Positions 31,386-46,031 of a stretch of 64,000 nucleotides of DNA are shown here, one piece after another. The stretch is from Desulfobaccales bacterium (GTDB lineage: Bacteria > Desulfobacterota > Desulfobaccia > Desulfobaccales > 0-14-0-80-60-11). The notes under the pieces were generated by a model. It searched no databases. It saw nothing but the letters and a program-made list of their open reading frames with translations, and had not been told where the DNA came from. Both the position numbers and the translations under genes were made by a program. How positions within the stretch are numbered: the first letter of the stretch is position 1; every line of letters starts with the position of its first letter. The stretch covers positions 17,632-81,631 of the forward strand of contig JBAVAG010000025.1 of assembly GCA_049585595.1 (NCBI GenBank), read 5' to 3'.

Positions 31386-33416
31386 ATGGCTGCCAAAGTA
31401 AAAGCACTTTCATTGTTTGATAAGACGATCCTGATCCCGGCGATCGGGGATTCCTTTCGGAAGCTTGACCCCCGCGTGATGGTTCGCAATCCGGTGATGT
31501 TTGTGGCATTGGCGGGAGCTGTGGTGACGACGGCCAAACTCTTTTACACCCCTTTACATGGCGGGTCTTGGGGTTTCTTTCTGCAGATCGCTCTGTGGCT
31601 CTGGTTCACGGTGCTGTTCGCCAACTTTGCCGAGGCCATGGCGGAAGGGCGGGGCAAGGCCCAGGCGGCCACCCTGCGCAAGGCTCGGACCCAGGCCATT
31701 GCCCAGCGTCGGCTGCCCGACGGGGTCATCGAGCCAATCCCGGCAGAGGCCCTGCGTAAAGGCGATATCTTCGTGGTTAAGGCCACTGAGGTGATTCCGG
31801 CAGACGGCGAAATTATCGAAGGCGTAGCCACAGTGAATGAATCGGCCATCACCGGTGAGTCGGCCCCGGTGATTCGCGAGGCCGGCGGCGATCGCAGCGC
31901 CGTTACCGGCGGCACCCTGGTGCTCTCCGACGAGATTGTGGTGCAGGTCACCGCCAACCCCGGGGAGAGCTTCATGGACCGGATGATCGACCTGATCGAA
32001 GGCGCCAGCCGGCAGAAGACCCCCAACGAAATCGCCCTGACCATCCTGCTGGCGGCCCTGACTATCATCTTTCTGGTGGCGATCGTCACCCTGAAGCTCT
32101 TTGGTGCTTATGCGCGGGTGGACTTCTCCGTCCCAGTGCTGGCCGCCCTGCTGGTCTGCCTGATCCCCACCACCATCGGCGGCTTGCTTAGCGCCATCGG
32201 CATCGCCGGCATCGACCGGCTGGTGCGGCAAAACGTCTTGGCCATGAGCGGCCGCGCCGCCGAAGCTGCCGGTGATGTGGACGTGCTCCTGCTGGACAAG
32301 ACCGGCACCATCACCCTGGGCAACCGCCAGGCGGTGGAGTTCCTCCCGGCCCCGGGAGTCGATGTTAAAGAACTGGCCAACGTGGCACAGCTCGCCTCCC
32401 TGATCGATGAAACGCCCGAAGGACGCAGCATCGTGGTACTGGCCAAGCAATACGGCCTTAGGGGGCGGGAGCTGCATGAGTTTCCTGGTGCCGAGTTTGT
32501 CCCCTTTAGCGCCAGGACCCGCATGAGCGGCCTCAATGTCGAGGGCAAGCAATACCGCAAGGGCGCCTCGGATGCCGTACAAGAGTTCGTCGGCAAGCCG
32601 CTGCCTCCGGAGGTAGATGCTGAGATCCAGCGCATCGGCTCCCTGGGCGGCACCCCCCTGGTGGTCGCCAGTGCCGAAACGATCTATGGAGTGGTCTATC
32701 TCAAGGACATCGTCAAGGGCGGCTTGGCGGACCGATTCCTGCGCTACCGGGCCATGGGCATCACCACCATCATGATTACCGGCGACAATCCCCTCACTGC
32801 CGCGGCCATCGCCAAGGAAGCCGGGGTCGATGATTTCCTGGCCCAGGCCAAACCGGAGGACAAGCTGGCCATGATTCACCGGCAACAGGCAGCCGGACAC
32901 CTCGTGGCCATGACCGGCGACGGCACCAACGACGCCCCGGCCCTGGCGCAGGCCGACGTGGGCGTGGCCATGAACACCGGCACCCAGGCGGCCAAAGAGG
33001 CTGGCAACATGGTGGATCTAGATTCTAACCCCACCAAACTTATCGAGATCATGGAGATCGGCAAACAGCTTCTCATGACCCGGGGAGCCCTCACCACCTT
33101 CAGCGTCGCCAACGACGTAGCCAAATACTTTGCCATCATCCCGGCCATGCTGGTGGGGACCTTCCCCCAAATCGCCCCCTTCAATCTTATGAAACTGGCC
33201 TCGCCGGCCAGCGCCATCCTCAGTGCGGTGATCTTCAATGCCCTGATCATCATTGCCCTGATTCCCCTGGCGCTGAAAGGCATCAAGTTCCGCCCCTTGG
33301 GAGCCGCCGCGGTGCTGCGGCGCAATCTGCTGATCTATGGCCTGGGCGGCGTCATCGTGCCGTTTATCAGCATCAAGCTCATCGACTTGACAGTCGCCGC
33401 CCTGCACCTGGTCTGA
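31386..33416 (+). CDS. kdpB: KdpB P-type ATPase subunit
   Basis: DKTGTIT, MITGDN and TGDGTNDAP motifs, 676 aa. Confidence 0.95.
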
Positions 33417-33429
33417 GAGAGAATGAGAT

Positions 33430-34026
33430 ATGAATATCCGAGGACTGCTTCAGGAAATCAAGGTTTCGACCCTGGTCACCCTGGCCCTGGTGATCATCTT
33501 GTGCGGCGTCTATCCCCTGGCAGTTTGGGGCATCGCCCAGGTGGCCTTTCCCAGTCAGGCCAACGGCTCCCTGATATATGTAAAGGGACAGGCCATCGGC
33601 AGCCGCTTGCTGGCGCAGAACTTCAGCGGGCCGCAGTATTTCCACCCGAGGCCCTTGGCCGCCGGCGCTACAGGCTACGACGGCACAAGCTCCGGCGGAA
33701 GCAACCTGGGACCACTGTCCCGGAAGCTCACCGATCAGGTGAAGGAGCGGGTGGAGAAGTATCGCGCCGAAAATAACCTGCCGGCCGGAACCCTGGTTCC
33801 CGCCGATGCCGTGACCGCCTCCGGCAGCGGCCTGGACCCCCACATCAGTCTGCGCAATGCCGCTTTTCAGGCCACTCGGGTTGCCCAGACCAGAAAGTTG
33901 AGTGAAGATCAGGTCAAGGGCCTCCTGCAAAAATATACCGAAGGGCCTGACCTGGGCATCTTGGGAGAGCCCGGGGTCAATGTGCTGCGGCTCAATCTGG
34001 CACTGGACGCACTTCCGGTAAAGTAA
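33430..34026 (+). CDS. kdpC: KdpC
   Basis: Typical 198-aa KdpC: N-terminal TM helix, [18 protein letters not shown]. Confidence 0.9.
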
Positions 34027-34130
34027 GACAGTTTTCGGTAGTAGGGGCATAGGTGGCGATATCTGCTCTATATCTCCGCACTTCACCAGCAGGGTTTTGG
34101 AGTGCTGAAATGCTCATCAGGGCCGCGCCT

Positions 34131-35912
34131 TCATCCGGCAATTTTCCGGAGGCGAATGGAAGCCGGCGTCACTTCCACCAATTCATCCTGGTTGATAAAC
34201 TCCATGGCCTGTTCCAGGCTGAACTGTCTGGCGGGGACGAGCCGTAAGGCCTCATCGGTGCCTGCGGCCCGCATATTGGTGAGTTTCTTCTCCTTGGTAA
34301 TGTTCACCATCATATCTTCGGACCGGGTATTCTCCCCGATAATCATGCCCTTATAAACCGGGTCTCCGGGCTTCACGAAAATAGTCCCCCGGGGCTGCAG
34401 GTGAAAGATGGCATAAGCCACCGCCTTCCCGGGCCGGTCGGCGACCAGGACCCCGTTGGGCCGGCCGCTGATCTCACCCATGACCGGAGTGAAGCCCTCC
34501 AGGATGGTGTTCAAGAGCCCGGTGCCCCGGGTATCGTTCAAAAACTGGCCGCGAAAACCGATCAGACCGCGGGAAGGGATTTCAAACTCCAGGCGCACCC
34601 GGCCGAAGCCGTGATTGATCATCTTGACCATCCTTCCGCAACGGGCGCTCATCTGTTCGGTCACAATCCCGATGAACTCCTCGGGGATGTCCACCACGGC
34701 CAGTTCCACCGGCTCTGACAGCACTCCATCCCGCTCCCGGGTAATAACCCTCGGTTTGGACAGAGACAGCTCAAACCCCTCCCGGCGCATCATCTCTATA
34801 AGCACTGCCAGTTGGAGCTCCCCCCGGGCGCTCACCTTGAAGGCGTCCCGGCTTTCCGCCGGCTCCACTCGGATGCTCACGTTGTAAAGAATTTCCTTAT
34901 CGAGGCGCTCCTTGAGGTGGCGGGAAGTGAGCAGCTTGCCTTCCCGGCCGGCCAAAGGAGAGGTATTCACGGAGAAGACCATGGAAATGGTCGGCTCTTC
35001 CACCTTGATAGGGGGCAGCGGCCGCGGGTCCTCGGGATCGCCCAGGGTGTCGCCGATGAAGGCCTGGGGCACCCCGGCCACCGCGGCGATATCCCCGGCC
35101 GCAATCGCCTCCGGCTCGAGGCGGTCCAGTCCCTCGAAACTGTAAAGGACGGTGAGACGGGCCTTCCCGGCGAGGTCCCCTTGTTTCAACAGAGCTACGT
35201 CCTGGCCCCGGCGCAGCGTGCCGCTCACCAGTTTACCTACGGCGATCAGACCCACATAATCGCTGTAATCGAGGCTGGTGACCAGAAACTGCAAGGGAGA
35301 CGACGGCTCAAAGGACGGGGCGGGGATGGCGGAGAGAATGGCGTCAAACAAGGGCGCCAGGTCCCGGCCCTCCCCGGCCGGGTCATTGAGGGCAATGCCG
35401 GCCTTGGCGTTGGTATAGAGCACCGGAAAATCGAGTTGCTCTTCGGTGGCGTCGAGGTCGATGAACAGATCGTAGATCTCGTCCAGAACCTCCTTGACGC
35501 GGCGGTCGGGGCGATCGATCTTGTTGATGACCACGATTACCGGCAGGGCCTTCTCCAGGGCCTTTCCCAGGACAAACCTGGTTTGGGGCAGCGGGCCTTC
35601 GGTGGCGTCCACCAGCAGCATGACCCCTTCCACCATATTCAGGGTGCGTTCCACCTCGCCTCCGAAATCGGCGTGGCCCGGGGTGTCCACGATATTGATC
35701 TTTACCCCTTTATAAGTGATGGCCATGTTCTTGGCCATGATAGTGATACCCTTTTCCCGCTCCAGGTCCAGGCTGTCCAGGACCCGCTCCGCCACCTGCT
35801 CGTTTTCTCGAAAGATGCCGCTTTGCCAGAGCATGGCATCGGCCAGGGTGGTTTTGCCGTGGTCGACGTGGGCGATAATGGCCAGATTTCGCAAATCTTC
35901 ACGAATACGCAT
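34131..35912 (-). CDS. typA: translational GTPase TypA/BipA
   Basis: [33 protein letters not shown]. Start set at MRIREDL. Confidence 0.95.
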
Positions 35913-36160
35913 GCATATCTCCGGAATAAGAACGGATTTTTGGTTACAGGATCGCCCGGGAGTATGGAGAGGCCTTCCTCTCATCTCGTCAAGGAGGCAG
36001 GATACTCAGCATCCTTAATATTACCGGAAAATTGAGAAAAATGCTGCAACGAGCGGTCCGACAACCCTGGATTTGCCCTTGGCAAATTGGCCTCGTGGGC
36101 CTTCCCCCTCAAGGTATTCCCTTAAAATTCTCATCATGATCTTTTTTGGCGGTTAAGGGG

Positions 36161-36189
36161 TTGACAAAGGAAAACCGGGGGGCTAATCT
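36161..36189 (+). promoter_or_regulatory. sigma70-type promoter of the Mg2+-cluster leader
   Basis: TTGACA (36161-36166), 17-nt spacer, TAATCT (36184-36189). Confidence 0.5.
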
Positions 36190-36368
36190 CACCCCAAGGA
36201 TGCAAATTCAAGAGAGGAGATTCGTCGCTTTATATGGACGACCCTGGCGGTAGTAGCATCATAAGACTGATTAGCAGCGCAGGTCATGGCGATCTGGCGC
36301 TCCGGACAGTCCTCTTGGGGATGCCTATAAGGTAAGCAGGCGCCGTCGGCACCTGACCTTCCTATATA

Positions 36369-36401
36369 CCCCCGTGCAGGCCTGCCCGGGGGTTTCTTTT
36401 T
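36369..36401 (+). terminator. intrinsic terminator inside the 5' leader (attenuator or riboswitch expression platform)
   Basis: CCCCCGTGCAGG-CC-TGCCCGGGGG hairpin followed by TTTCTTTTT. Located about 90 nt upstream of the first ORF of the operon. Confidence 0.6.
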
Positions 36402-36488
36402 CCTGCCACAGGAAAACCCTGCCAGAACCGCTCTTTCCCATGGCGTGAGCTGCGCGTTCCCTCAATTTCGGTAAAGGAGGTGATTGCC

Positions 36489-36848
36489 ATGAATGGAGTA
36501 GTTTCCACCTATGTTCATGCCCTGGAAGGGAGGCTGCGGATCAAACTTCCCGAGATTAAGAGGGCGGCCTTGAAGGCCCGGGAAGTGGAGCGCCATCTTC
36601 ATGGGCTTGCCGGGGTGGAGTCCGTTTCGGCCAATCCCACCACCGGGAACGTGCTGATCCTTTACAACCCTCAAGCCATTGAACAGGAAGAGCTTTTTTT
36701 CTTCCTGATGCAATGGGGATATCTGTCTCCATCCAGGGAAGGGAGCGGGAGGGCCGATTCTCCCTCAGCCCTGGAAAGAACGGCTGCCAGCGTGGCCGCC
36801 ACCATCATGGAGGTCGCCTTCACTCAGTTAATCGGCGCCTTGATCTAA
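36489..36848 (+). CDS. stand-alone HMA_2-like (P-type-ATPase N-terminal-like) domain protein
   Basis: GRLRIKLPEIKRAALKAREVERHLHGLAGVESVSANPTTGNVLILYNP resembles the N-terminal metal-associated-like domain of cation P-type ATPases. AGGAGG lies 7 nt upstream of ATG 36489. Confidence 0.5.
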   Translation: MNGVVSTYVHALEGRLRIKLPEIKRAALKAREVERHLHGLAGVESVSANPTTGNVLILYNPQAIEQEELFFFLMQWGYLSPSREGSGRADSPSALERTAASVAATIMEVAFTQLIGALI

Positions 36849-36901
36849 AGAGGGGTCCATCGGGAAGCGCCGCCGGTTTGGGTTTAACACAGGAGTCGAT
36901 T

Positions 36902-37600
36902 ATGCCCTGGGTAGAATTCTGCTTGAGGCTGGTCTTGGCGCTGATTTTCGGGTGCGTCATCGGCTTCGAAAGGCAACTGCGGCAGCGGCTGGCGGGAATG
37001 CGCACCAACACGCTGGTTTCCGTCGGTTCGGCCTTGTTCGTGTTGATGGGGATGATGACCCCGGGCGACAGCAGCCCCACCCGCATTGCGGGCCAGGTCG
37101 CCTCCGGTATCGGCTTCCTGGGGGCCGGGGTCATCATCTGCCACGGCCTGAATGTCAGGGGTTTGAACACCGCCGCCACCTTGTGGTGCTCCGCGGCCGT
37201 GGGCGTTTTATGCGGGGCAGGATTTAAAACGCAAGCCCTGGTGGGAACTTTCGCAGTCCTGGTGGCCAACATTTTGCTGCGGCCGCTGGCGCAGCGATTC
37301 CCCCGGCATGTGGACAATCGGGCCGAAGGCGAAATGACCTATCGGCTCATAGCCGTCTGTTGAGCCGAAGATGAGCAAAAGATGCGAGCCTTGCTGATGC
37401 AGATGGTTAATGCGAGCCCCTTAATGATCGGCTCGCTCCTCAGCGAAGATACCGACAATCCGGCCAGGGTGGAGATGAGCGCCAAATTGGTCAGCCTTGG
37501 CAACAATCACGCCGCCATGGAGCAGCTCGTCTCCCGCCTCAGCCTCGAGGCTGGGGTCAGCGCCGTAAGTCGGGAAATCGCAGGCCAGGAAGAGATTTAA
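36902..37600 (+). pseudogene. mgtC: MgtC/SapB-family protein with one in-frame TGA at 37361-37363, between the membrane domain and the C-terminal soluble domain
   Basis: GFERQLRQRLAGMRTNTLV...GIGFLGAGVI...RGLNTAATLWCSAAVG, then YRLIAVC-TGA-AEDEQKMRALLMQ...SLLSED...VSRLSLEAGVSAVS, all in one frame (track ORFs 36713-37363 and 37382-37600). Confidence 0.65.
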
Positions 37601-37615
37601 GGAAGGAGGTGAGGC

Positions 37616-37897
37616 ATGAGAATAAAGGACTTGCATGGTATAGAAGGTTTCATCTGGCCTCCCGAATGGGTCGCCAGACTGGGAGGATCTTATGAGAAAT
37701 GGATTTTACAAGAAGTAAAGCTGTATAAGGACCATGATCCGCCTTCTATCTATATCGAGGCTGTATATAAAAGCGATGCTCAAGAAGGTGTAATCTATCT
37801 GGACCCTCATGAGCTTCTTGAGATCCTCTATCAGTTGCTTAATAAAAATATCGGAAAATCCTTAGCAGTGATCGGAGACTTAAAGATAACCTTTTAA
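37616..37897 (+). CDS. hypothetical protein (93 aa), AT-rich
   Basis: GGAGG upstream of the start. About 40% GC versus about 62% in the neighbours. No family recognised. Confidence 0.4.
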   Translation: MRIKDLHGIEGFIWPPEWVARLGGSYEKWILQEVKLYKDHDPPSIYIEAVYKSDAQEGVIYLDPHELLEILYQLLNKNIGKSLAVIGDLKITF

Positions 37898-38032
37898 ATA
37901 TTAACAATATATTAATTGATTAATAGTGAGGCTCAAATAAATATTAATTAAAATGTTGCGGGCTTGCTACTGGATTGATGGAGCGGCTAATATCTCAATC
38001 CGTTCAGCTGACCCAATTTCCCGAGAGTAACC

Positions 38033-39346
38033 ATGTTTTGGCTCAGCAAGGCTATCCACCTCACGAATCGCTTCCGGCGGAGATTGCTCATTTTCCTGGC
38101 GGTGCTGGGACCCGGCATCATCGTGATGGTGGCGGATAACGACGCCGGCGGCATCGCCACCTATGCGGTGACCGGCTCCAAATACGGGTTCTCTCTGCTC
38201 TGGCTGTTCGTCCTGCTGCTCCCCATGGCTTACTATGTCCAGGAAATGACGGTACGCCTGGGATCCGTGACCAAACGGGGACATGCCGAGGCTATCTTTG
38301 ATGGCTTCGGCCCCTTTTGGGGCTGGTTTTCCCTCGGCGACCTGGCCCTGGTTAACTGGTTGACCCTCATCACCGAATATATCGGCATGACTGAAGCTAT
38401 GGCCATGTTCGGCATCCCCCGCTGGATCACCTATATCGGGGTGACCCTTATCCTTTTTGGCGTGGTTATCTCGGGAAAGTATTGGACCTTCGAAAAGGTC
38501 ACCCTGTTTTTCTGTCTCTTTAACCTGGTCTATATCCCCGCGGCCTTTTGGGGGATGAGCATCTCTTACTCTCCGGGATGGGGGAAGGCCATGGAAGGAT
38601 TCATACCCCAGCTCCCCGGCGGCCTCACCGGCGACATGATCTTTATCCTCATGGCGAACGTCGGCACGACCATCGCGCCCTGGATGATCTTTTTTCAGCA
38701 GAGTGCGGTGGTGGATAAGGGCATGGATGTTCACGATATCCCCTACGGCCAGCTTGAGACCTTCCTCGGTTCCATTTCCACCAATGTGGTGGCGGTTTTT
38801 ATCATTCTGACCACCGGGGCGGTGCTCTTTTATCATCATCCACCCATCACCGTGGAAGACGTCAAACAGACCGCCGAAGCCCTGATGCCCCTGATGCCGC
38901 ACGGACAGGGGGACTGGGCCAGGAAACTCTACGCCATCGGCCTTTTTGACGCCGGCTTCCTCGGGTCCCTGTGCATCTCTCTGTCTTCTTCCTGGGCCGT
39001 GGGGGAGGTTTTCGGCTGGGCCCACTCCTTGAACGCTCGGGTCAAGGACGCCATCTGGTTTTATCTGATTTATCTGGGTATGCTCGCCACATCTGGTGCG
39101 GTGGTGCTAATTCCGGGAGCCCCCCTGATCACTATCACCATGTTCGTGCAGGTCATCGCGGTTACTGTGCTGCCGGCAGCCTTAATATTCTTGTTGTTGC
39201 TGTTAAACGACAGGGCCACCATGGGCGACCACGTGAATACGCGGGTGCAAAATATTATGAACTGGTCTATTGTCATCATTGTCTGTGCCGGCTCCACCCT
39301 TTTGGGAATCCAAACGATGTTCCCTATCTGGTTTGGAGGGTCGTAA
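38033..39346 (+). CDS. NRAMP (SLC11)-family transporter of the NRAMP-related Mg2+-transporter type
   Basis: NRAMP fold (GPGIIVMVADNDAGGIATY...). The TM1 motif is D-A-G-G instead of D-P-G-N, and the TM6 motif is G-T-T-I-A-P-W instead of G-A-x-I-M-P-H. Confidence 0.75.
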   Translation: MFWLSKAIHLTNRFRRRLLIFLAVLGPGIIVMVADNDAGGIATYAVTGSKYGFSLLWLFVLLLPMAYYVQEMTVRLGSVTKRGHAEAIFDGFGPFWGWFSLGDLALVNWLTLITEYIGMTEAMAMFGIPRWITYIGVTLILFGVVISGKYWTFEKVTLFFCLFNLVYIPAAFWGMSISYSPGWGKAMEGFIPQLPGGLTGDMIFILMANVGTTIAPWMIFFQQSAVVDKGMDVHDIPYGQLETFLGSISTNVVAVFIILTTGAVLFYHHPPITVEDVKQTAEALMPLMPHGQGDWARKLYAIGLFDAGFLGSLCISLSSSWAVGEVFGWAHSLNARVKDAIWFYLIYLGMLATSGAVVLIPGAPLITITMFVQVIAVTVLPAALIFLLLLLNDRATMGDHVNTRVQNIMNWSIVIIVCAGSTLLGIQTMFPIWFGGS

Positions 39347-40632
39347 TGACAAGCTCTAGACAGCAGGTTTCAGGCCAGGAGCCGCAGGCCAGAAATGGCC
39401 CCTGCCGAATTCTCTTTTTTTCGGAAATGAGCAAGCGGCGGGTTTGCGCCGGGAACATTAAAAATCGTTTGGGGAAGCTCACCGATCTGGTTTTTGCCAT
39501 GGCTGAGCCTTACCCCGAGGCCGCCGGCCTTTACCTGGAGCACGGGTGGAATCAGCCGACGGAATTTATCCCCTGGGATAAGGTGATCAAGATCGATGAC
39601 GACGCCATCTTCGTGGAGCCGCCGGAGGGCGGCAAGTACCCGGCTTTTGTGGACCAGCCCGGATGGATTCTCTTGGATAAGCACTTGATGGGACGCACCA
39701 TAGTGGACCTGGATGGCCGGCGCATTGAAGTGGTTAACGACGTTTCCCTGGTAGAGGCCCGGAGCAAACTTCTCATGGTGGATGTCGACGTCTCTTTCAA
39801 TGGGTTCTGGCGTCGTTGGGGATTGGGCCGGTTGCACCTGGCCAAGAGCCGTTTAATCCCTTGGAAGTACGTCCAACCCTTATCCCTGGAAGATGCGGTA
39901 AACACCGACAAGGTCGCTCTTTCGGTAACCCGCCAGCATTTGGTCGAATTGCCCAGCGAGGACCTGGCGGATGTCTTGGAAGAACTTTCCCGCCATGAAC
40001 AGGAAGCAGTCTTTTCGGCTCTCGATTCAGAGAAGGCCGCGGAAACCTTACTGGAGGTGGAACCCAGGGCTCAACGCCAAATCATCACCCATCTGCGGGA
40101 GGAGCATGCCAAGTCCATTTTCTCGGAAATGACGGTGCCGCAGCTGGCCAATATCTTCTCCATCCTGCCCCACGACGATGTGCAGGACCTGATAAAGGTG
40201 CTCGAACCGGAAACGGCGAAGCGGGTGCAAGCCATTCTCTCGGAACAGGAAACCAGAGCCAGGAGCCTCATGTCCCCTGATTTTTGGGCCAAACCCCCCG
40301 ACGCCAAGGTGGGAGAGGTGGTGGAGGAAATTAGGCGCTCAAGAAGCGAGCCCCACCAGATATCTTATATTTTTGTGGTAGACCAGGATAAGACCCTTTT
40401 GGGGGTGGTGGACTTGCGGGAATTGGTCGTCACCGGGGATGAGAAGAGTTTAAAGGAGATCATGGCCTCACCGGTGGTCCCTGCCGAAGAGAGTGACTTG
40501 CGGGAAGACGTGGCTCAGATTTTTGCCAAATACCACTTTCGCATGCTCCCGGTAGTCGATAGTGCGGACCATATCCTGGGAGTCATCTATTATCAGGACA
40601 TCATGAAAGATTTGGTAATCCGCGTGGCTTAA
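39346..40632 (+). CDS. soluble PRC-barrel / MgtE_N / CBS-pair protein (the MgtE cytoplasmic sensor part without the membrane domain)
   Basis: ATG overlaps the stop of the NRAMP gene (TAATG). Contains the MgtE_N-like helical region LPSEDLADVLEEL..EAVFSAL..AAETL and a C-terminal CBS pair. No TM segments. Confidence 0.7.
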   Translation: MTSSRQQVSGQEPQARNGPCRILFFSEMSKRRVCAGNIKNRLGKLTDLVFAMAEPYPEAAGLYLEHGWNQPTEFIPWDKVIKIDDDAIFVEPPEGGKYPAFVDQPGWILLDKHLMGRTIVDLDGRRIEVVNDVSLVEARSKLLMVDVDVSFNGFWRRWGLGRLHLAKSRLIPWKYVQPLSLEDAVNTDKVALSVTRQHLVELPSEDLADVLEELSRHEQEAVFSALDSEKAAETLLEVEPRAQRQIITHLREEHAKSIFSEMTVPQLANIFSILPHDDVQDLIKVLEPETAKRVQAILSEQETRARSLMSPDFWAKPPDAKVGEVVEEIRRSRSEPHQISYIFVVDQDKTLLGVVDLRELVVTGDEKSLKEIMASPVVPAEESDLREDVAQIFAKYHFRMLPVVDSADHILGVIYYQDIMKDLVIRVA

Positions 40633-40642
40633 GGAGGGGAAA

Positions 40643-40756
40643 ATGCCTCGGGTACAAATGACTCGCACGACTAAGATAGCTCTATATTTCTTAAGGGCCT
40701 ACTTAATATTGTTGGTAATCCTGGTTTTGGTGAGATTCTTAAAGGGTTTTGGTTGA
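40643..40756 (+). CDS. putative 37-aa membrane peptide
   Basis: AAGGAGGGG lies 6 nt upstream. MPRVQMTRTTKIALYFLRAYLILLVILVLVRFLKGFG has one TM helix. Confidence 0.35.
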   Translation: MPRVQMTRTTKIALYFLRAYLILLVILVLVRFLKGFG

Positions 40757-40941
40757 AGATTAATTTTTCGGTGGAGGCCTAGCTATTAATCTCCCAACCC
40801 CTCAAGTCTTCCTGCGCCGGGGCGCCCGACTCCGGCGCAGGAAGCCAGAATACTGTCAACTTCCAGGGAATTCGCGAATAAGCAAATGGGGGTGAAGGCC
40901 AGGGCGCTTGGGCCTGGGCTAACCCTGCCCCCGTCCCGGCT

Positions 40942-41967
40942 TCAGGACGGTGGGGCTCCATAGAGCTTATGCAGTTCGAGATTCACTTCCAGCACGTTCA
41001 CCAACTTCTCCCCCACCAGCCCTTCCCAGGGCGCCGAAGCGTTTTTCTGCAGGATCTGTTCGATCTCCTTCCGCACCTCTTCCGGCGGGCGTTTTAGGTC
41101 GGCGGCCCATTTGGAGGCCACCCGCTCGAGCTGAAACTCGGCGTTCTGAAGCGAGATATGCGGATCGAGCCCGGAGGCGGAAGCGGTAACCAAATCTCCG
41201 GGGAGGTCCTGCAAGTCCACATCCGGGTGGTCCTCACGCCACATCAAGAAGAAAATCGACTGAATGTCCGAGCCCTCACTGACCGGTTCCACCACCTTTT
41301 CCTCCTTGCCGCCGGCTCCCTTGTGGGTGACGATGGAGGGGAACTTTCCGGGGTAGGTCGCGGAGAAGTTCTTGAAGAACACCATGGCCAGGTCTGCTGC
41401 CTGGGGCTTCGGGGTGTCGGGGTTGTCCTTGATAAACTGGGCCACCACCTCGGGATGCGTCTTGGCCCAATTATCGACGTAGGCGGTGTTCATCGGGTCC
41501 GCCTTCACCCAGGCCTGGGCCAGGGAGTTGTGCTGGTCCGCCCATTGGTCCACCAGGTGCGGTTTGCCCGAGTAGGTATCCTGCTGGAACCATTTTTCCA
41601 CATCCGGCGCCACCGGCTTTCCGTTATTAGCCCCGCCGCGGTAGGTCACCAGGGGGCCCAGGGTGCGGGCCACCCGGTCGCGCAGTGCATAGTTGGAGGC
41701 CGCCAGGGCTGACGAAGCCGAGGCCGAGGCGTCGTAGGACGCGGCCGAAGGCCGGGGCTGAAAGTATTCGTCCTTGGTAAACGGCTGGGCGATGAGCCTC
41801 GAGCCCACCGGTTTGCCGTCAGGGCCCGGCACCAGGCTGCCGTTGGCCTGGAAGGGAAAGAAGACCTGTCCCACCACCAATACCGCCAATGGGTAAATGA
41901 CGCAGACGAGGAGCACCGAGACGCACAACAACAGGATGCTCTTGGAAAGAATTTGCCGCATGTTCAT
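40942..41967 (-). CDS. kdpC: KdpC, long form (341 aa, with an insertion of about 150 aa)
   Basis: N-terminal TM helix plus FQANGSL and C-terminal [15 protein letters not shown] are KdpC hallmarks. A large Trp/Asp-rich insertion separates them. Confidence 0.8.
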   Translation of the reverse strand: MNMRQILSKSILLLCVSVLLVCVIYPLAVLVVGQVFFPFQANGSLVPGPDGKPVGSRLIAQPFTKDEYFQPRPSAASYDASASASSALAASNYALRDRVARTLGPLVTYRGGANNGKPVAPDVEKWFQQDTYSGKPHLVDQWADQHNSLAQAWVKADPMNTAYVDNWAKTHPEVVAQFIKDNPDTPKPQAADLAMVFFKNFSATYPGKFPSIVTHKGAGGKEEKVVEPVSEGSDIQSIFFLMWREDHPDVDLQDLPGDLVTASASGLDPHISLQNAEFQLERVASKWAADLKRPPEEVRKEIEQILQKNASAPWEGLVGEKLVNVLEVNLELHKLYGAPPS

Positions 41968-41992
41968 GCCTCCTTGAACCAGGTAAGCTCAG

Positions 41993-44146
41993 CTAAACCA
42001 AATTGATACTTGTCAGGAGAAGATCGATCAGTTTTATGCCGATAAAGGGGATGATCACGCCTCCCAATCCCCAGATCAGCAAATTCCGCCGCAGCAGCGC
42101 ATCGGCGCCCAAGGCCCGGTAGCGGACTCCTTTAAGGGCCACCGGGATGAGGCACGGAATGATAATGGCATTGAAGATCACCGCCGACAGGATGGCCGAA
42201 ACCGGCGAATGCAGGTGCATGATGTCGATCGCCTTCAGCCACGGCAAAGTGCCCGCAAACAGCGCCGGGATGATGGCGAAGTACTTTGCCATGTCGTTGG
42301 CGATGGAGAAGGTGGTCAATGACCCCCGGGTGATCAGGAGCTGCTTGCCGATTTCCACCACCTCGATCAGCTTGGTGGGGTCACTGTCCAGATCCACCAT
42401 GTTGGCCGCTTCCTTGGCAGCCTGGGTGCCGGCGTTCATGGCCAGGGCCACGTCGGCCTGGGCCAGGGCCGGGGCGTCATTGGTGCCGTCCCCCATCATG
42501 GCCACCAATTTCCCTTCGCCCTGCTCCTTCCTTATATAGGCTAGCTTGGTCTCCGGGGTGGCCTGGGCGAGGAAGTCATCGACGCCCGCCTTTTCGGCAA
42601 TGGTCTTGGCCGTCAGGGGGTTGTCCCCGGTGATCATCACGGTCCTAAGGCCCATCTTTCTCAGGCGGTCGAAACGCACGGCCATGTGGGGTTTCAAAAT
42701 GTCCTCCAACACCACCAGGCCCACGATCCGGTTGTCTTCGGCGACCGCCAGAGGGGTGGCGCCTTTGGAGGCGACGCTTTCCACGAAGCCGTTGAGCTCA
42801 TCCGGGATACTGCCCTGGCTGGCCTGGACGAATTCGCCAATGGCGTCCGGGGCTCCTTTGCGGATCCGCTTGCCGTCGGGAAGATCGACGCCGCTCATGC
42901 GCGTTTGGGCGGTGAACGGCACAAACTTCGCCTCCGGCGGCACCAGGATTGGGGTTTTGGTTTCCTCTACGAATAAATCGACGATGCTCTTCCCCTCAGG
43001 CGTCGGATCCGCCTCGGAGGCCAGGGCGGCCAGCCGCCCTACTTCAGCAGCCGAATAGTCGCCGACGGGAATGAACTTGGTGGCATGGCGGTTGCCCACG
43101 GTGATGGTGCCGGTCTTATCGAGCATGACCACGTCGATGTCGCCGGCCAGCTCCACCGACTTGCCGCTCTTGGCGATAATATTGGCCTGGAGGGCGCGAT
43201 CCATGCCGGCGATGCCGATGGCGGCCAGCAAGGCGCCGATGGTGGTGGGAATGAGGCAGACCAGCAGCGCAATCAGGGTCGGCACGTCGGTGCCGAGACT
43301 GTGCAAGGGTTCTTTGAGGCCCAGGTAGCCCATCATGTATTGTTCGGCGTTCCAGGACATGGGCCACAGGGGCATCACCACGATCAGGAAGACCAGGGTA
43401 AAGGCGGAGAGCACCAGGGTCAGGGCGATCTCATTGGGAGACCGCTGCCGGATGGCGCCCTCCACCAGGGCAATCATCCGGTCCAGGAACGAATCGCCGG
43501 CGCCCTGGGTGATCTCCACGACAATCCGGTCGGAAAGCACCACGGTACCCCCGGTCACCCCGGAGCGGTCGGTCCCGGCGGCGCGAATGACCGGCGCCGA
43601 CTCGCCCGTGATGGCCGATTCGTCCACCGAAGCCATGCCCTCGATGATCTCCCCGTCGCCGGGAATAGTCTGTCCCGCCTCCACCACCACCCGGTCACCC
43701 TGTTTTAGGGTCGCCGACGAGACCTCCTCAATGGCGTTGGCTTTATTGAGGCGATAGGCCACGGTATCGTGGCGGGCCCGCCGGAGCGAGTCGGCCTGGG
43801 CCTTACCGCGGGCCTCGGCCAGGGCCGTGGCGAAGTTGGCGAACAGCACGGTCAGGAAGAGCCAGACGTCCACCCAGATGAAATAACTGATGGGCACCTC
43901 GCTCACCGATTTGCCCAGGGCCGCCTGTAAGATAAACAACAGGGTCAGGAAGGCCCCGATCTCGACCACGAACATCACGGGATTATTCCACATGAGGTCA
44001 GGCCTCAGCATGGCGAAGGCCTGCTTCAAGGCCGCCAGCCCGGTTTCCTTCTCCAGCAGTCCTTTGGGTTTCACCCGGCGCTGCGATCCTGGCAGCGTGG
44101 CAGCAATCTCGGCTACAGGTTCCACTTTTATGCCGTTATTATCCAT
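41993..44146 (-). CDS. kdpB: KdpB P-type ATPase subunit (second operon)
   Basis: DKTGTIT, MITGDN and MGDGTNDAP motifs, 717 aa. Confidence 0.95.
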
Positions 44147-44201
44147 TTCGATATCTCTCCATCTGAGGTCTCATCAGGTGAGCCTCAAGGTTGCTCAAAG
44201 T

Positions 44202-46031
44202 TCAGCCCCCGAAGGGGATCGGGCCAAAATGCTCAGCCAACGGCCCCAAGGCAGCCACCGGCAGAAAGAGCAGGGCTTGAATGATCACTACCACCCCGAA
44301 CAACAGGAGGCCGAAGGTGAGGCTGTCGTCCCGCAGGGTCCCCAGGCCGAAGGGGCTCGATTTCTTCTCTCCGAGATAGGCCGCCATGGCCATGGGCGCA
44401 ATAATCGGCAGAAAGCGGGCGAAAATGATAGTGAGGCCCGTGGCAATGTCCCAGGGGATGGCCGTGGGCGACGGGCTCGGGTTGCTTAACAGGCCATAGG
44501 TGACCCCGAGGCCATCGAAGGCCGAGCCGTTATTGGCCGAGGCCGAGGAGAACTGGTAGAGCATCTGGGAAAAACCATGGGCCCCGGGGTTGCTGACGGC
44601 CAGGAGCCCCCAGCTCGTCGCTGCAAAGAGGCCGGTGGGTATGAGGATCATGGCCGGATGGACCAGCAGGGCCAGGACCGCCAGCTTCACCTCCCGGGCC
44701 CCGATCTTTTTGCCCAAATACTCGGGTGTCCGTCCCACCATCATGCCGGCTATGAAGATGCCGATGATGATGAAGATCAGCATATTGATCATGCCCACGC
44801 CTTTGCCACCGAAGAAGCAGTTGTTCCACATGCCCCACATGGGCGATATGGAAGCGACGGGGTTCATGCTATCTTCCTCGGCATTCACCGCACCACAGGT
44901 GACATCGGTGGTGAGTGCATCGAAGGTGGCGCCGGCCGAGGTCCCGAAGCGCATCTCTTTGCCTTCGAGATTGCCCAGGTGCTGGTCCACCGGCAGGCCG
45001 GCAACGGCCGGCAGGGATACCACCTGTTTGCCGCCCGGCGCCTTGGCGTTGGGGACCTCAAAAGTTCGGGCCACCGGATGGGCGGTCAATCCCGGATTCG
45101 GTTGCAGAGTGTCAAAGTAAACCGACCAGACGACCGTGCCCGCCATGAACACCAGCATAACTATGAAAATGACCAGGCCGTGCCGGAAACGGCCCAACAT
45201 GCGGCCGTACATCAGCACCAGGGCGAAGGGGAAGATCATCATGGCCAGGGTGTTGAAAAAGTTTGCCAGGCCAGTGGGATTCTCGAAGGGGTGTGCCGAG
45301 TTCATCCCGAAATAGCCGCCCCCGTTGGTGCCCAGCATCTTCATGGACTCAAAGGCGGCCACCGGTCCCATCGAGATAACCTGCGGCTTCGCCTCGCCTT
45401 TATCCGTGGTTCCCATGGCCGCAGGTTCGAGGGTCGAAACCTTCTGGGAGGCTTGCAGGGTCATGGGGCTGCCTTGCGTGATGAAAATGAGGGCGACAAC
45501 GAAGGCCACCGGCACGAACATATAAGCCAACACCCGCCACATGTCCTGGAAAAAATTGCCGATCAAGGCCTGGCCGCGCAGCAGCCGGATGATGGCGACC
45601 AGGGCGCATAAGCCGATGGCCGCGGACAAGAAGAGATTGGCGTTGGCAAAGAAAATCTGGCTAAAGATCGATAGGGTCTGCTCCCCGGCATAGTGCTGGA
45701 GGTCGGTGTTCGTCATGAACGAGGCCACGCTGTGGAAGATGGTGCTGGGGTTGATCATCCCAAAGCCATCCGGATTGAGCGGCAGCCAGGGCTGGAAGGC
45801 CAGGACCAGAAAGCCGAACACGAACAGGACGGTGTTAAAAATGAGCAGGGAGGCGATATACTGCTTCCAGTTCTGCTGGCCGCTGTCCAGGTGCTTCTCA
45901 ACCCAGCCCAGGACCGGCAGGGGCCGGTATTTCCCCTCCATGATCCAGGTCAAGTACCGGCTTAAGGGGAAGGCGATGACGGTCGCCGCGGCCAAAAGCA
46001 AGAAAGGAAGTAACCAGATTTGCATAAACAT
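44202..46031 (-). CDS. kdpA: KdpA (second operon, divergent subfamily)
   Basis: 609 aa with KdpA blocks NTDLQHYAGE, MLGTNGGGYF and SASANNGSAF. Confidence 0.9.
   Translation of the reverse strand: MFMQIWLLPFLLLAAATVIAFPLSRYLTWIMEGKYRPLPVLGWVEKHLDSGQQNWKQYIASLLIFNTVLFVFGFLVLAFQPWLPLNPDGFGMINPSTIFHSVASFMTNTDLQHYAGEQTLSIFSQIFFANANLFLSAAIGLCALVAIIRLLRGQALIGNFFQDMWRVLAYMFVPVAFVVALIFITQGSPMTLQASQKVSTLEPAAMGTTDKGEAKPQVISMGPVAAFESMKMLGTNGGGYFGMNSAHPFENPTGLANFFNTLAMMIFPFALVLMYGRMLGRFRHGLVIFIVMLVFMAGTVVWSVYFDTLQPNPGLTAHPVARTFEVPNAKAPGGKQVVSLPAVAGLPVDQHLGNLEGKEMRFGTSAGATFDALTTDVTCGAVNAEEDSMNPVASISPMWGMWNNCFFGGKGVGMINMLIFIIIGIFIAGMMVGRTPEYLGKKIGAREVKLAVLALLVHPAMILIPTGLFAATSWGLLAVSNPGAHGFSQMLYQFSSASANNGSAFDGLGVTYGLLSNPSPSPTAIPWDIATGLTIIFARFLPIIAPMAMAAYLGEKKSSPFGLGTLRDDSLTFGLLLFGVVVIIQALLFLPVAALGPLAEHFGPIPFGG

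What the first reader, a model, noticed from the sequence alone, without database searches (positions are those of the whole stretch)
36161..40756. Mg2+ homeostasis cluster pairing an NRAMP-related Mg2+-type transporter with a detached MgtE cytoplasmic sensor
**The transporter.** The NRAMP homolog (38033-39346) has D-A-G-G in TM1 and G-T-T-I-A-P-W in TM6, instead of the transition-metal signature D-P-G-N and A-x-x-M-P-H. As far as I recall, these Asn-to-Gly, Ala-to-Thr and Met-to-Ala changes define the NRAMP-related magnesium transporters (NRMT) characterised structurally in Eggerthella lenta.

**The coupled gene.** Its stop overlaps the start (TAATG) of a 428-aa soluble protein made of PRC-barrel repeats, an MgtE_N domain and a CBS pair. 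That is the Mg2+-sensing cytoplasmic part of MgtE without the channel.

**Other genes in the cluster.** Upstream are mgtC, an HMA_2-like protein and a leader containing an intrinsic terminator. Downstream is a 37-aa TM peptide.

**Hypothesis.** The detached MgtE sensor gates or regulates the NRMT in trans. This would be a modular swap of transporter core under a conserved Mg2+ sensor, which to my knowledge has not been described.
Basis: partly seen in the sequence, partly recalled or inferred. Interest (0 to 1): 0.6.

Follow-up and report, generated by a model that had tools for sequence, protein, structure and literature searches.

The report
NRMT magnesium transporter operon with partners
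This is an operon for an NRAMP-related magnesium transporter, its MgtE-like cytoplasmic partner protein (a pairing first reported in 2014 and still untested) and a 37-residue membrane peptide that turns out to be a conserved, apparently undescribed third member.

Summary
Gene 38033-39346 is an NRAMP-related Mg2+ transporter (NRMT): it has the DxxG/TxxA site and its best solved relative is EleNRMT (E 1.5e-63, against about 1e-14 for MntH). Its stop overlaps (TAATG) a 428-aa PRC / MgtE_N / CBS-pair protein with no membrane domain.

The pair is strongly co-conserved. In 78 of 78 assessable orthologous loci from more than 10 phyla the partner lies directly downstream. In Eggerthellaceae (EleNRMT type) it lies directly upstream.

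The claim that this is undescribed is wrong. Shin et al. 2014 (PLoS Genet) reported "mgtE-nramp operons" and proposed the same feedback-regulation idea. The function remains untested.

New here, as far as I could find:
- The 37-aa peptide is a third conserved gene (71 of 71 loci). It has no family assignment, and its conserved residues lie on one helical face.
- This clade has the gene order transporter, partner, peptide.
- The window has no M-box but a conserved leader ending in a terminator. Five of 33 orthologous operons carry an M-box.
- mgtC carries a CGA-to-TGA nonsense codon. mgtC and the HMA_2-like gene are not part of the conserved module.
- The MgtE Mg2+ ligands are only partly kept. 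The ATP pocket is better kept.

The parts
36161..36189 (+). Promoter-like site: TTGACA, 17 nt, TAATCT
   Evidence: Read from the sequence. Invariant or nearly so in relatives L005, L007, L011 and L081. Not flagged by the consensus scan, which requires T at position 6 and A at position 2 of a closer -10 match.
36215..36401 (+). Conserved 5' leader RNA ending in an intrinsic terminator (hairpin 36369-36392, then UUUCUUUUU 36393-36401). It is not an M-box.
   Evidence: No Rfam match at E<=1. Conserved at 79-93% in relatives and in 14 metagenome contigs, and it always precedes the NRMT operon, even where the HMA_2-like gene and mgtC are missing. The consensus fold has loop-located indels and a GC-to-AU compensatory pair. 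The single-sequence fold z-score is only -0.65.
36489..36848 (+). HMA_2-like protein (119 aa from the ATG; no cysteine, so no CxxC metal site)
   Evidence: PF19991 E 3.9e-12, 46.8 bits against a cut-off of 30. Found upstream of NRMT in only 4 of 72 orthologous loci. In L012 and L013 it lies between an M-box and NRMT.
36902..37600 (+). mgtC interrupted by an in-frame TGA at 37361-37363. This splits it into a 153-aa membrane part and a 72-aa MgtC_SapB_C part (restart ATG at 37382).
   Evidence: PF02308 E 5.4e-38 and PF21770 E 2.6e-17 fall on separate ORFs in the same frame. The codon is CGA (Arg) in the intact 232-aa gene of relative L005. The same split is present in 4 independent assemblies.
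37616..37897 (+). ORF93, an orphan 93-aa ORF, followed by an A+T-rich spacer (37898-38032)
   Evidence: No Pfam or NCBIfam hit. Full length only in close relatives and partial in others.
38033..39346 (+). NRMT: NRAMP-related Mg2+ transporter (437 aa). DxxG at 38141-38152, TxxA at 38666-38677.
   Evidence: PDB: EleNRMT 7qia E 1.5e-63, against 1.5e-14 or weaker for canonical NRAMPs. The NRMT signature DxxG-TxxA/T is defined in PMC8806188. W217/Q222 replace the two helix-6b histidines; E115 and Q373 are kept. 33% identity to the Paraeggerthella NRMT.
39346..40632 (+). Soluble partner (428 aa): PRC barrel (39418-39630), PRC-like region (39685-39873), MgtE_N (39952-40242), CBS pair (about 40252-40608). 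No plug helix and no membrane domain.
   Evidence: Pfam. T. thermophilus MgtE cytosolic domain 2yvy E 4.7e-26, aligned to MgtE residues 19-250. AlphaFold2: the MgtE_N and CBS parts have pLDDT 70-89, the N-terminal half below 50. Directly downstream of NRMT in 78 of 78 loci.
40643..40756 (+). 37-aa single-pass membrane peptide (MPRVQMTRTTKIALYFLRAYLILLVILVLVRFLKGFG), the third conserved gene of the module
   Evidence: AGGAGG lies 5 nt upstream of the start codon. Found after the partner gene in 71 of 71 assessable loci in more than 10 phyla. M1, L14, L17, Y20 and L27 are invariant; T7 and F32 are nearly so (71 of 72). Conservation peaks at 100 degrees per residue. No Pfam, NCBIfam or PDB match. 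Sources name it 'hypothetical protein'. 36 representative clusters, all 35-79 aa, with no fusions.
40808..40844 (.). 13-bp inverted repeat (CTTCCTGCGCCGG...CCGGCGCAGGAAG) between the operon and the convergent kdpC. Possible bidirectional terminator.
   Evidence: Read from the sequence. No T-run follows. Not tested further.

Best explanation
The region is one + strand operon for Mg2+ uptake. Only the last three genes form a conserved module.

1. **The carrier (shown by homology).** The NRMT is a LeuT-fold SLC11-type carrier with the enlarged DxxG/TxxA site. In EleNRMT this site accepts hydrated Mg2+ (and Mn2+) without proton coupling.
2. **The partner (architecture shown; mechanism inferred).** The translationally coupled 428-aa protein has PRC, PRC-like, MgtE_N and CBS-pair domains. 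It is the regulatory cytoplasmic part of an MgtE channel without plug helix or pore. I infer that it forms a CBS-mediated dimer and binds an adenine nucleotide and/or Mg2+. I infer that it then docks on the cytoplasmic face of the carrier through its highly conserved PRC-like region and restrains uptake when cytosolic Mg2+ or MgATP is sufficient.
3. **The peptide (conservation shown; role inferred).** The 37-aa peptide is an integral single-pass subunit. One invariant helix face packs against the carrier. Its conserved cytoplasmic N-terminus (MPRxxMT) may tether or position the soluble partner.
4. **Expression (element shown; signal unknown).** Transcription starts at a sigma-70-like promoter and is probably controlled by attenuation in a conserved leader of about 190 nt that ends in an intrinsic terminator. 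In some orthologous operons an M-box Mg2+ riboswitch occupies that position.

The HMA_2-like gene, mgtC (inactivated or split by a nonsense codon) and ORF93 are lineage-specific passengers.
For: **NRMT identity**
-.

**Link to Mg2+**
- An M-box (RF00380, 118-136 bits) lies upstream on the same strand in 5 of 33 scanned orthologous operons: L009, L012, L013, L014 and L083. Their NRMTs are 72-78% identical to the window's.
- mgtC sits in the operon of the window's group and of L016 and L109.

**Partnership**
- The partner is adjacent on the same strand in 78 of 78 loci, mostly with gaps of -4 to +22 nt.
- A full-length ortholog (28% identity, E 9e-47) lies directly upstream of the EleNRMT-type gene in Eggerthellaceae.
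- Identity to the window protein correlates between the genes across loci: r = 0.79 for NRMT against partner and 0.80 for NRMT against peptide.

**Sensor character of the partner**
- It is homologous to MgtE residues 19-250.
- The ATP-pocket residues Y170, R187, D188 (as E/D) and F227 (as Y/F) are kept in 59-64 of 64 orthologs. Mg2+ ligands E59, D247 and E216 are kept in 56-63 of 64 (residue roles from PMC5529423 and PMC5882242).
- The PRC-like region and the MgtE_N domain are the most conserved parts: 31 of 92 and 29 of 108 columns at 95% or more.

**Peptide as a subunit**
- Present in 71 of 71 loci, with helical periodicity of conservation and a ribosome-binding site in 61 of 71.

**Leader**
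-.

**Published precedent for the regulatory idea**
- PMC4072509.
Against: - No interaction was modelled or measured.
- NRMTs transport without the partner: C. acetobutylicum genes in B. subtilis, and EleNRMT, characterised without any mention of the partner. So the partner is not required for transport.
- Co-expressing the A. capsulatum pair did not change Mg2+ rescue, and that transporter behaved as a Mn2+ importer.
- Four of the tested MgtE Mg2+-ligand positions are not acidic here: D91 is P, D226 is H, D250 is K, and D214 is hydrophobic. The plug helix that transmits gating in MgtE is absent.
- One close partner homolog (65% identity) stands alone, with no NRMT or peptide within 3 kb (L108).
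- The window has no M-box, and the leader's structure rests on few, closely related sequences.
Confidence: 0.5

Rival explanations
1. The soluble partner is not a gate. It is a metal chaperone or buffer, or an assembly or stability factor, for the carrier. The peptide is a stabilising subunit, as KdpF is for KdpABC.
For: Shin et al. offered chaperone activity as an alternative. Transport works without the partner. The Mg2+-ligand residues and plug helix needed for MgtE-type gating are largely missing. The most conserved part is the PRC-like region, a protein-protein interaction fold, rather than the CBS pair.
Against: Mg2+ is abundant and weakly bound, so a Mg2+ chaperone has no precedent that I know of (my own knowledge). 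The nucleotide-pocket residues of a regulatory CBS pair are conserved. Its closest homolog, the MgtE cytosolic domain, is a regulator.
Confidence: 0.15
2. In this clade the system mainly imports Mn2+ (or is a broad divalent-cation importer). The partner then senses something other than Mg2+, for example Mn2+ or energy charge.
For: The A. capsulatum homolog, which has an adjacent MgtE-like gene and no M-box, rescued a Mn2+ transport defect fully and a Mg2+ defect only partly. EleNRMT also transports Mn2+. The window has no M-box. Position D226 of MgtE is a conserved His here, in 52 of 64 orthologs. L008 has an MntP-like gene just downstream.
Against: M-box riboswitches control 5 of 33 orthologous operons in this same clade. 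Thr212, equivalent to the Thr224 that EleNRMT needs for Mg2+, is invariant in the five aligned orthologs. mgtC is linked in several members.
Confidence: 0.15
3. The partner is a general CBS/MgtE_N nucleotide or ion sensor with other targets. Its adjacency to NRMT reflects co-regulation rather than physical coupling.
For: A stand-alone homolog exists without NRMT or peptide nearby (L108). No natural fusion of the peptide with a larger protein was found.
Against: Adjacency holds in 78 of 78 loci, with start/stop overlap or gaps of a few nucleotides, across more than 10 phyla and in otherwise unrelated neighbourhoods. The pairing persists with inverted gene order in Eggerthellaceae. Seven of 8 partner-centred contexts include NRMT.
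Confidence: 0.08

Closest known systems
'mgtE-nramp operons' / NrmT with MgtE-like fragment (Shin et al. 2014, PLoS Genet, PMC4072509; C. acetobutylicum Ca_c0685, A. capsulatum ACP2976-2977)
   Same: An NRAMP-related transporter is encoded next to, and co-transcribed with, a gene for the MgtE cytoplasmic domain. Some members are under M-box control. The regulatory hypothesis is the same.
   Different: In the published cases the MgtE-like gene mostly precedes the transporter. Here the order is transporter, partner, peptide. A third conserved gene, the 37-aa peptide, is present; I found no mention of it. The window has a different leader and no M-box. The partner's PRC-barrel N-terminal half is not mentioned in the text of that paper that I could search.
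EleNRMT (Eggerthella lenta; PDB 7QIA/7QIC/7QJI/7QJJ; Ramanadane et al. 2022, PMC8806188)
   Same: The binding-site motifs are the same: NDAGGI in TM1 and GTTIAPWM in TM6. The helix-6b histidines are lost. Glu on helix 3 and Gln on helix 10 are kept. Length and topology match.
   Different: Only 33% identity to the related Paraeggerthella NRMT (about 91% identical to the EleNRMT construct). The window clade has a conserved N-terminal tail (M1, S5, K6, H9, R13). In Eggerthellaceae the partner is upstream and no peptide gene was found. The partner was not part of that structural and functional study.
MgtE Mg2+ channel of Thermus thermophilus (PDB 2YVX/2YVY/5X9G)
   Same: The N domain plus CBS pair are homologous (E 4.7e-26). 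The ATP-pocket residues and three acidic Mg2+ ligands are conserved.
   Different: There is no plug helix and no five-helix pore domain. Two PRC-type modules are added at the N-terminus. Mg4, Mg5 and Mg6 site residues are partly replaced. Any action on a transporter would have to be in trans, on an unrelated fold.
Small membrane-protein partners of ion transporters (KdpF with KdpABC; MgtS and MgtR with MgtA/MgtC; AcrZ with AcrB). Analogy only, from my own knowledge.
   Same: A single-pass peptide of about 30-40 residues is encoded in or beside a transporter operon.
   Different: There is no sequence relationship. The function of the peptide here is untested.

Membership tests
NRMT (NRAMP-related Mg2+ transporters) | DxxG motif in the unwound part of helix 1 (Asn of DxxN replaced by Gly) | tested here: met
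   D37-A-G-G40, invariant in the five aligned orthologs. Definition from PMC8806188.
NRMT (NRAMP-related Mg2+ transporters) | TxxA/T motif in helix 6 (Ala to Thr, Met to Ala/Thr) | tested here: met
   T212-T-I-A215. One ortholog has TxxT.
NRMT (NRAMP-related Mg2+ transporters) | Loss of the proton-pathway residues (the two helix-6b histidines) | tested here: met
   W217 and Q222 occupy the positions that are W and N in EleNRMT.
NRMT (NRAMP-related Mg2+ transporters) | Closer to a characterised NRMT than to canonical Mn/Fe NRAMPs | tested here: met
   EleNRMT E 1.5e-63; the best canonical NRAMP is 1.5e-14. No full phylogeny was built. Placement relative to Cellier's separate 'Slc11 outgroup' clade is unresolved.
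NRMT (NRAMP-related Mg2+ transporters) | Mg2+ transport activity | not testable with these tools
   Indirect only: an M-box upstream of 5 of 33 orthologous operons.
mgtE-nramp operon (Shin et al. 2014) | Adjacent co-oriented gene for the MgtE N-terminal cytoplasmic domain | tested here: met
   TAATG overlap in the window. 78 of 78 orthologous loci.
MgtE channel (TIGR00400 / PF01769) | C-terminal five-helix membrane pore domain and plug helix | tested here: not met
   TIGR00400 scores 118 bits against a cut-off of 232.75 and covers only profile positions 21-254 of 450. Appending the peptide does not extend the match into TM1. The protein ends at MgtE residue of about 250.
MgtE cytosolic Mg2+ sensor | Acidic ligands of sites Mg3-Mg7 (E59, D91, D95, D214, E216, D226, D247, D250) | tested here: inconclusive
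   Kept: E59 (63 of 64), D247 (62 of 64), E216 (56 of 64). D95 is kept in 37 of 64 and is Asn in the window. Replaced: D91 by P, D226 by H, D250 by K/R, D214 by hydrophobic residues. The assignment of D214 and E216 to sites Mg2/Mg3 is from my memory; the others are from PMC5882242.
MgtE-type ATP-binding CBS pair | Y170, R187, D188, N203, F227 (Tomita et al. 2017) | tested here: inconclusive
   Four of 5 are kept or conservatively replaced in 59-64 of 64 orthologs. N203 is lost. Binding was not measured.
M-box riboswitch (RF00380) | Match to the covariance model upstream of the operon | tested here: not met
   No match at E<=1 in 34000-42000. Present in orthologous operons L009, L012, L013, L014 and L083.
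MgtC | Contiguous MgtC membrane domain plus MgtC_SapB_C domain | tested here: not met
   Both domains are present but separated by an in-frame TGA. The gene is intact in L005.

The most novel reading that the evidence does not exclude
NRMT, the PRC-MgtE_N-CBS protein and the 37-aa peptide form an obligatory three-subunit Mg2+ uptake machine. The micro-protein is the missing adaptor that couples an MgtE-type cytosolic Mg2+/ATP sensor in trans to a LeuT-fold SLC11 carrier. The same regulatory module would then serve two unrelated transport architectures. The non-M-box leader would be a second, undescribed Mg2+-responsive RNA.
Probability: 0.3. Interest if true: 0.65.

Novelty: new variant of a known kind. 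Interest (0 to 1): 0.42.

Why it matters
NRMTs are the fourth class of bacterial Mg2+ importers. Their nearly universal MgtE-like partner has had no assigned function since 2014, and the structural work on EleNRMT left it out.

This clade spans more than 10 phyla and always carries a third gene, a micro-protein with one conserved helix face. That gives a defined three-component set to reconstitute. The set allows a direct test of whether an MgtE-type sensor can regulate a carrier of a different fold in trans.

The result also warns against annotating these genes as 'MntH' and 'magnesium transporter MgtE'.

Tried and rejected
1. **Fused-chain AlphaFold model** (partner, linker, NRMT, linker, peptide) to mimic a multimer. 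No complex model exists.
2. **AlphaFold2 of the partner alone** with 32 homologs. Only the MgtE_N and CBS parts were usable; residues 1-198 had pLDDT below 50. I ran no fold search.
3. **Peptide as a detached MgtE TM1.** I saw a loose ALxxxRxxL resemblance from memory. Appending the peptide to the partner did not extend the TIGR00400 match into TM1. A peptide profile found nothing in the PDB at E<=10. Rejected for lack of evidence.
4. **Internal duplication of the PRC region.** Profile-profile alignment found only a 10-residue IPW-x-KV echo, probability 1.3%.
5. **Homolog search with the peptide alignment.** Replaced by the representatives search.
6. **Leader as an M-box or other Rfam family.** No match.
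7. **Leader as a leader peptide (33-aa ORF 36234-36335).** Unlikely: indels in relatives shift the frame and fall in hairpin loops.
8. **HMA_2-like gene, mgtC or another recurrent gene as a fourth member.** The HMA_2-like gene occurs in only 4 of 72 loci, and no other recurrent upstream family was found.
9. **Supplementary figures of Shin et al.** Only legends were readable and the alignment PDF was empty.
10. **The consensus terminator scan** missed the leader terminator. I identified it by reading and aligning the sequence.

Full report
**Source and gene map**

The window comes from a Desulfobaccales metagenome-assembled genome. Public sources name the partner protein 'magnesium transporter MgtE N-terminal domain-containing protein [Desulfobaccales bacterium]'.

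The + strand between 36161 and 40756 carries, in order:
- a sigma-70-like promoter: TTGACA at 36161-36166, 17 nt, TAATCT at 36184-36189;
- a leader of about 190 nt ending in a G+C-rich hairpin (36369-36392) followed by UUUCUUUUU;
- an HMA_2-like gene (36489-36848);
- mgtC (36902-37600);
- an orphan 93-aa ORF (37616-37897);
- the NRAMP homolog (38033-39346);
- a 428-aa soluble protein (39346-40632);
- a 37-aa ORF (40643-40756).

Two kdp gene sets flank the region: kdpB/kdpC at 31386-34026 on the + strand and kdpC/kdpB/kdpA at 40942-46031 on the - strand. A typA/bipA gene lies at 34131-35984 on the - strand.

**The transporter is an NRMT**

- Its best solved relative is EleNRMT (7QIA), E 1.5e-63. 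Every canonical NRAMP/MntH structure scores 1.5e-14 or weaker.
- The paper that defined the class gives the signature DxxG on helix 1 and TxxA/T on helix 6, in place of DxxN and A/CxxM (PMC8806188). The window protein has D37-A-G-G40 and T212-T-I-A215.
- The two helix-6b histidines of proton-coupled NRAMPs are W217 and Q222 here. The helix-3 Glu (E115) and helix-10 Gln (Q373) are kept.
- Identity to a Paraeggerthella NRMT is 33%. This is therefore a distinct subclade.
- I did not build a full tree. Its position relative to Cellier's separate 'Slc11 outgroup' (PMC9606685) is open.

**The partner is the MgtE regulatory domain with extra N-terminal modules**

- Pfam finds PRC (E 2.9e-11), MgtE_N (E 2.7e-19) and a CBS pair (E 1.2e-17). 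A second PRC-like stretch at residues 114-176 falls just below threshold.
- The C-terminal 235 residues align to residues 19-250 of T. thermophilus MgtE (E 4.7e-26). The protein stops where the MgtE plug helix would begin. The MgtE equivalog model is matched only over positions 21-254 of 450, well under its cut-off.
- An AlphaFold2 model was confident only for the MgtE_N and CBS parts (pLDDT 70-89). The N-terminal half was below 50.
- I mapped experimentally defined MgtE residues onto 64 orthologs. Residue roles come from PMC5882242 and PMC5529423, except D214 and E216, which I assigned from memory.
  - Mg2+ ligands E59, D247 and E216 are conserved.
  - D91, D226, D250 and D214 are replaced by Pro, His, Lys/Arg and hydrophobic residues.
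  - ATP-pocket residues Y170, R187, D188 (as E/D) and F227 (as Y/F) are kept in 59-64 of 64. N203 is lost.
- The fold of a sensor is therefore present. A nucleotide site is plausible. MgtE's own Mg2+ sites are only partly retained.
- In this clade the most conserved segments are the PRC-like region and the MgtE_N domain, not the CBS pair.

**Co-conservation**

- A scan of one genome per species with an NRMT alignment confirmed 463 relatives. The best 80 (59-98% identity) come from Desulfobacterota, Acidobacteriota, NC10, Bacteroidota, Planctomycetota, Verrucomicrobiota, Gemmatimonadota, Sumerlaeota, Eisenbacteria, Hydrogenedentes, Bacillota and others.
- In all 78 loci that extend beyond the transporter gene, the partner gene follows directly on the same strand, usually overlapping or within about 20 nt.
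- The surrounding genes differ completely between lineages.
- In Eggerthellaceae, the lineage of the structurally characterised EleNRMT, a full-length ortholog of the partner lies immediately upstream of the transporter. It is 28% identical, E 9e-47, and includes the PRC region.
- Looking from the partner's side, 7 of 8 distinct contexts contain the transporter. One Syntrophales contig carries the partner alone (L108).

**Prior knowledge**

The pairing is not new.
- Shin et al. [quoted passage not shown] They called these mgtE-nramp operons.
- They showed that C. acetobutylicum NrmT works without it.
- They found that co-expressing the A. capsulatum pair did not improve Mg2+ rescue. That transporter behaved as a Mn2+ importer.
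- I found no later paper in the searchable library that resolves the partner's function. The EleNRMT study does not mention it.

**What appears to be new**

1. *The peptide is a conserved third gene.*
   - A profile search of short ORFs after the partner gene finds it in 71 of 71 assessable loci, typically 10-30 nt downstream. It is 36-38 aa in most. Planctomycetota and Verrucomicrobiota versions carry Pro/Ala/Ser/Thr-rich C-terminal tails.
   - M1, L14, L17, Y20 and L27 are invariant. T7 and F32 are nearly so (71 of 72).
   - Conservation along the hydrophobic segment has a sharp alpha-helical periodicity: the peak at 100 degrees is 10.3, against 2-4 off-peak. This is what a helix-helix packing face would produce.
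   - It has no Pfam, NCBIfam or PDB match. Sources call it 'hypothetical protein'.
   - It forms 36 representative clusters, all small proteins, with no fusions.
   - It was not found in the Eggerthellaceae loci.
2. *Gene order.* Here it is transporter, partner, peptide. The published majority order is partner then transporter.
3. *Regulation.*
   - The window has no M-box or any other Rfam match.
   - Five of 33 orthologous operons scanned carry an M-box upstream on the same strand. This ties the clade to Mg2+.
   - The window's leader is conserved at 79-93% in relatives and in 14 metagenome contigs. It stays attached to the operon even where the HMA_2-like gene and mgtC are absent.
   - Its indels fall in predicted loops and one stem shows a GC-to-AU exchange. 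The sequences are too similar for a firm structure, and the single-sequence z-score is unremarkable.

**The rest of the 'cluster'**

- mgtC carries CGA to TGA at 37361-37363. The Arg codon and an intact 232-aa gene are present in a relative whose partner protein is 91% identical. The same stop occurs in four independent assemblies.
- Other relatives have lost mgtC or carry an internal deletion.
- The HMA_2-like protein has no cysteine, so it cannot be a CxxC metal binder. It occurs upstream of the transporter in only 4 of 72 loci, although in two of them it lies under M-box control.
- No other recurrent neighbour was found.

**Mechanism**

- Shown:
  - an NRMT-type carrier;
  - a translationally coupled soluble MgtE-type regulatory protein without a pore;
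  - a conserved single-pass micro-protein;
  - a terminator-containing leader;
  - M-box control in orthologs.
- Inferred:
  - The partner dimerises through its CBS pair, binds adenine nucleotide and/or Mg2+, and restrains the carrier from the cytoplasmic side.
  - Its PRC-type modules serve as the docking surface.
  - The peptide packs against the carrier and may position the partner.
- Points that weigh against a simple copy of MgtE gating:
  - the negative co-expression result for A. capsulatum;
  - transport without the partner in heterologous systems;
  - the partial loss of MgtE's Mg2+ ligands;
  - the missing plug helix;
  - one stand-alone partner homolog.
- I put about 0.5 on the regulatory three-component model as a whole. 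NRMT identity (about 0.9) and a functional partnership of the three genes (about 0.85) are much firmer.

**Verdict**

- It is wrong that this is undescribed.
- It is unproven on mechanism.
- The instance is a new variant of a known kind of operon. The added value is the conserved micro-protein and a candidate non-M-box leader.

Noticed in passing
window 37361-37363 (mgtC 36902-37600): mgtC is split by an in-frame TGA that is CGA (Arg) in a close relative. The same stop is present in four independent assemblies. Other relatives have lost mgtC or carry an internal deletion (L103). mgtC looks to be decaying in this lineage.
   Followed up: yes
window 36161-36401: A conserved promoter plus a leader RNA of about 190 nt ending in an intrinsic terminator, with no Rfam match. 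It travels with the NRMT operon in relatives, whereas more distant orthologous operons have an M-box. It is a candidate for an undescribed attenuator or riboswitch.
   Followed up: partly
L096, L100, L101, L105 (e.g. L096 6245-6465, - strand): Copies of the promoter and the first ~85 nt of the leader that then diverge and face a convergent 657-aa ORF of unknown function. No operon lies downstream. They look like truncated remnants of a rearrangement.
   Followed up: partly
L108 3001-4293: A partner homolog (65% identical) in a Syntrophales contig stands alone, with no NRMT or peptide gene within 3 kb.
   Followed up: partly
window 31386-34026 (+) and 40942-46031 (-): Two separate kdp gene sets flank the operon. 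The second KdpC (40942-41967) is 341 aa, much longer than the first (198 aa).
   Followed up: no
window 37616-38032: An orphan 93-aa ORF with no family match, followed by a markedly A+T-rich 135-nt spacer before the NRMT gene. The ORF is full length only in close relatives and reduced to its C-terminal ~40 residues in others.
   Followed up: partly
L012 4774-5790; L013 4372-5485: In two Desulfobacterota relatives an M-box riboswitch is followed by an HMA_2-like gene and then the NRMT module. This cysteine-free HMA_2-like protein is therefore an occasional Mg2+-regulated accessory.
   Followed up: partly
L072, L076, L077, L079, L080, L084, L085, L088-L090 (peptide genes after the partner gene): In Planctomycetota, Verrucomicrobiota and Lentisphaerae the peptide carries a low-complexity C-terminal tail of 20-50 residues rich in Pro, Ala, Ser, Thr and Gln.
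   Followed up: no
L012 7334-8257; L036 7330-8310: The partner gene appears truncated or frameshifted in two loci, although the peptide gene is still present downstream. These may be assembly errors or pseudogenes.
   Followed up: no
window 38033-38092 (NRMT residues 1-20): The cytoplasmic N-terminal tail of the transporter has residues conserved across the clade (M1, S5, K6, H9, R13) that are absent from the Eggerthellaceae NRMT. It is a possible docking site for the partner or the peptide.
   Followed up: no
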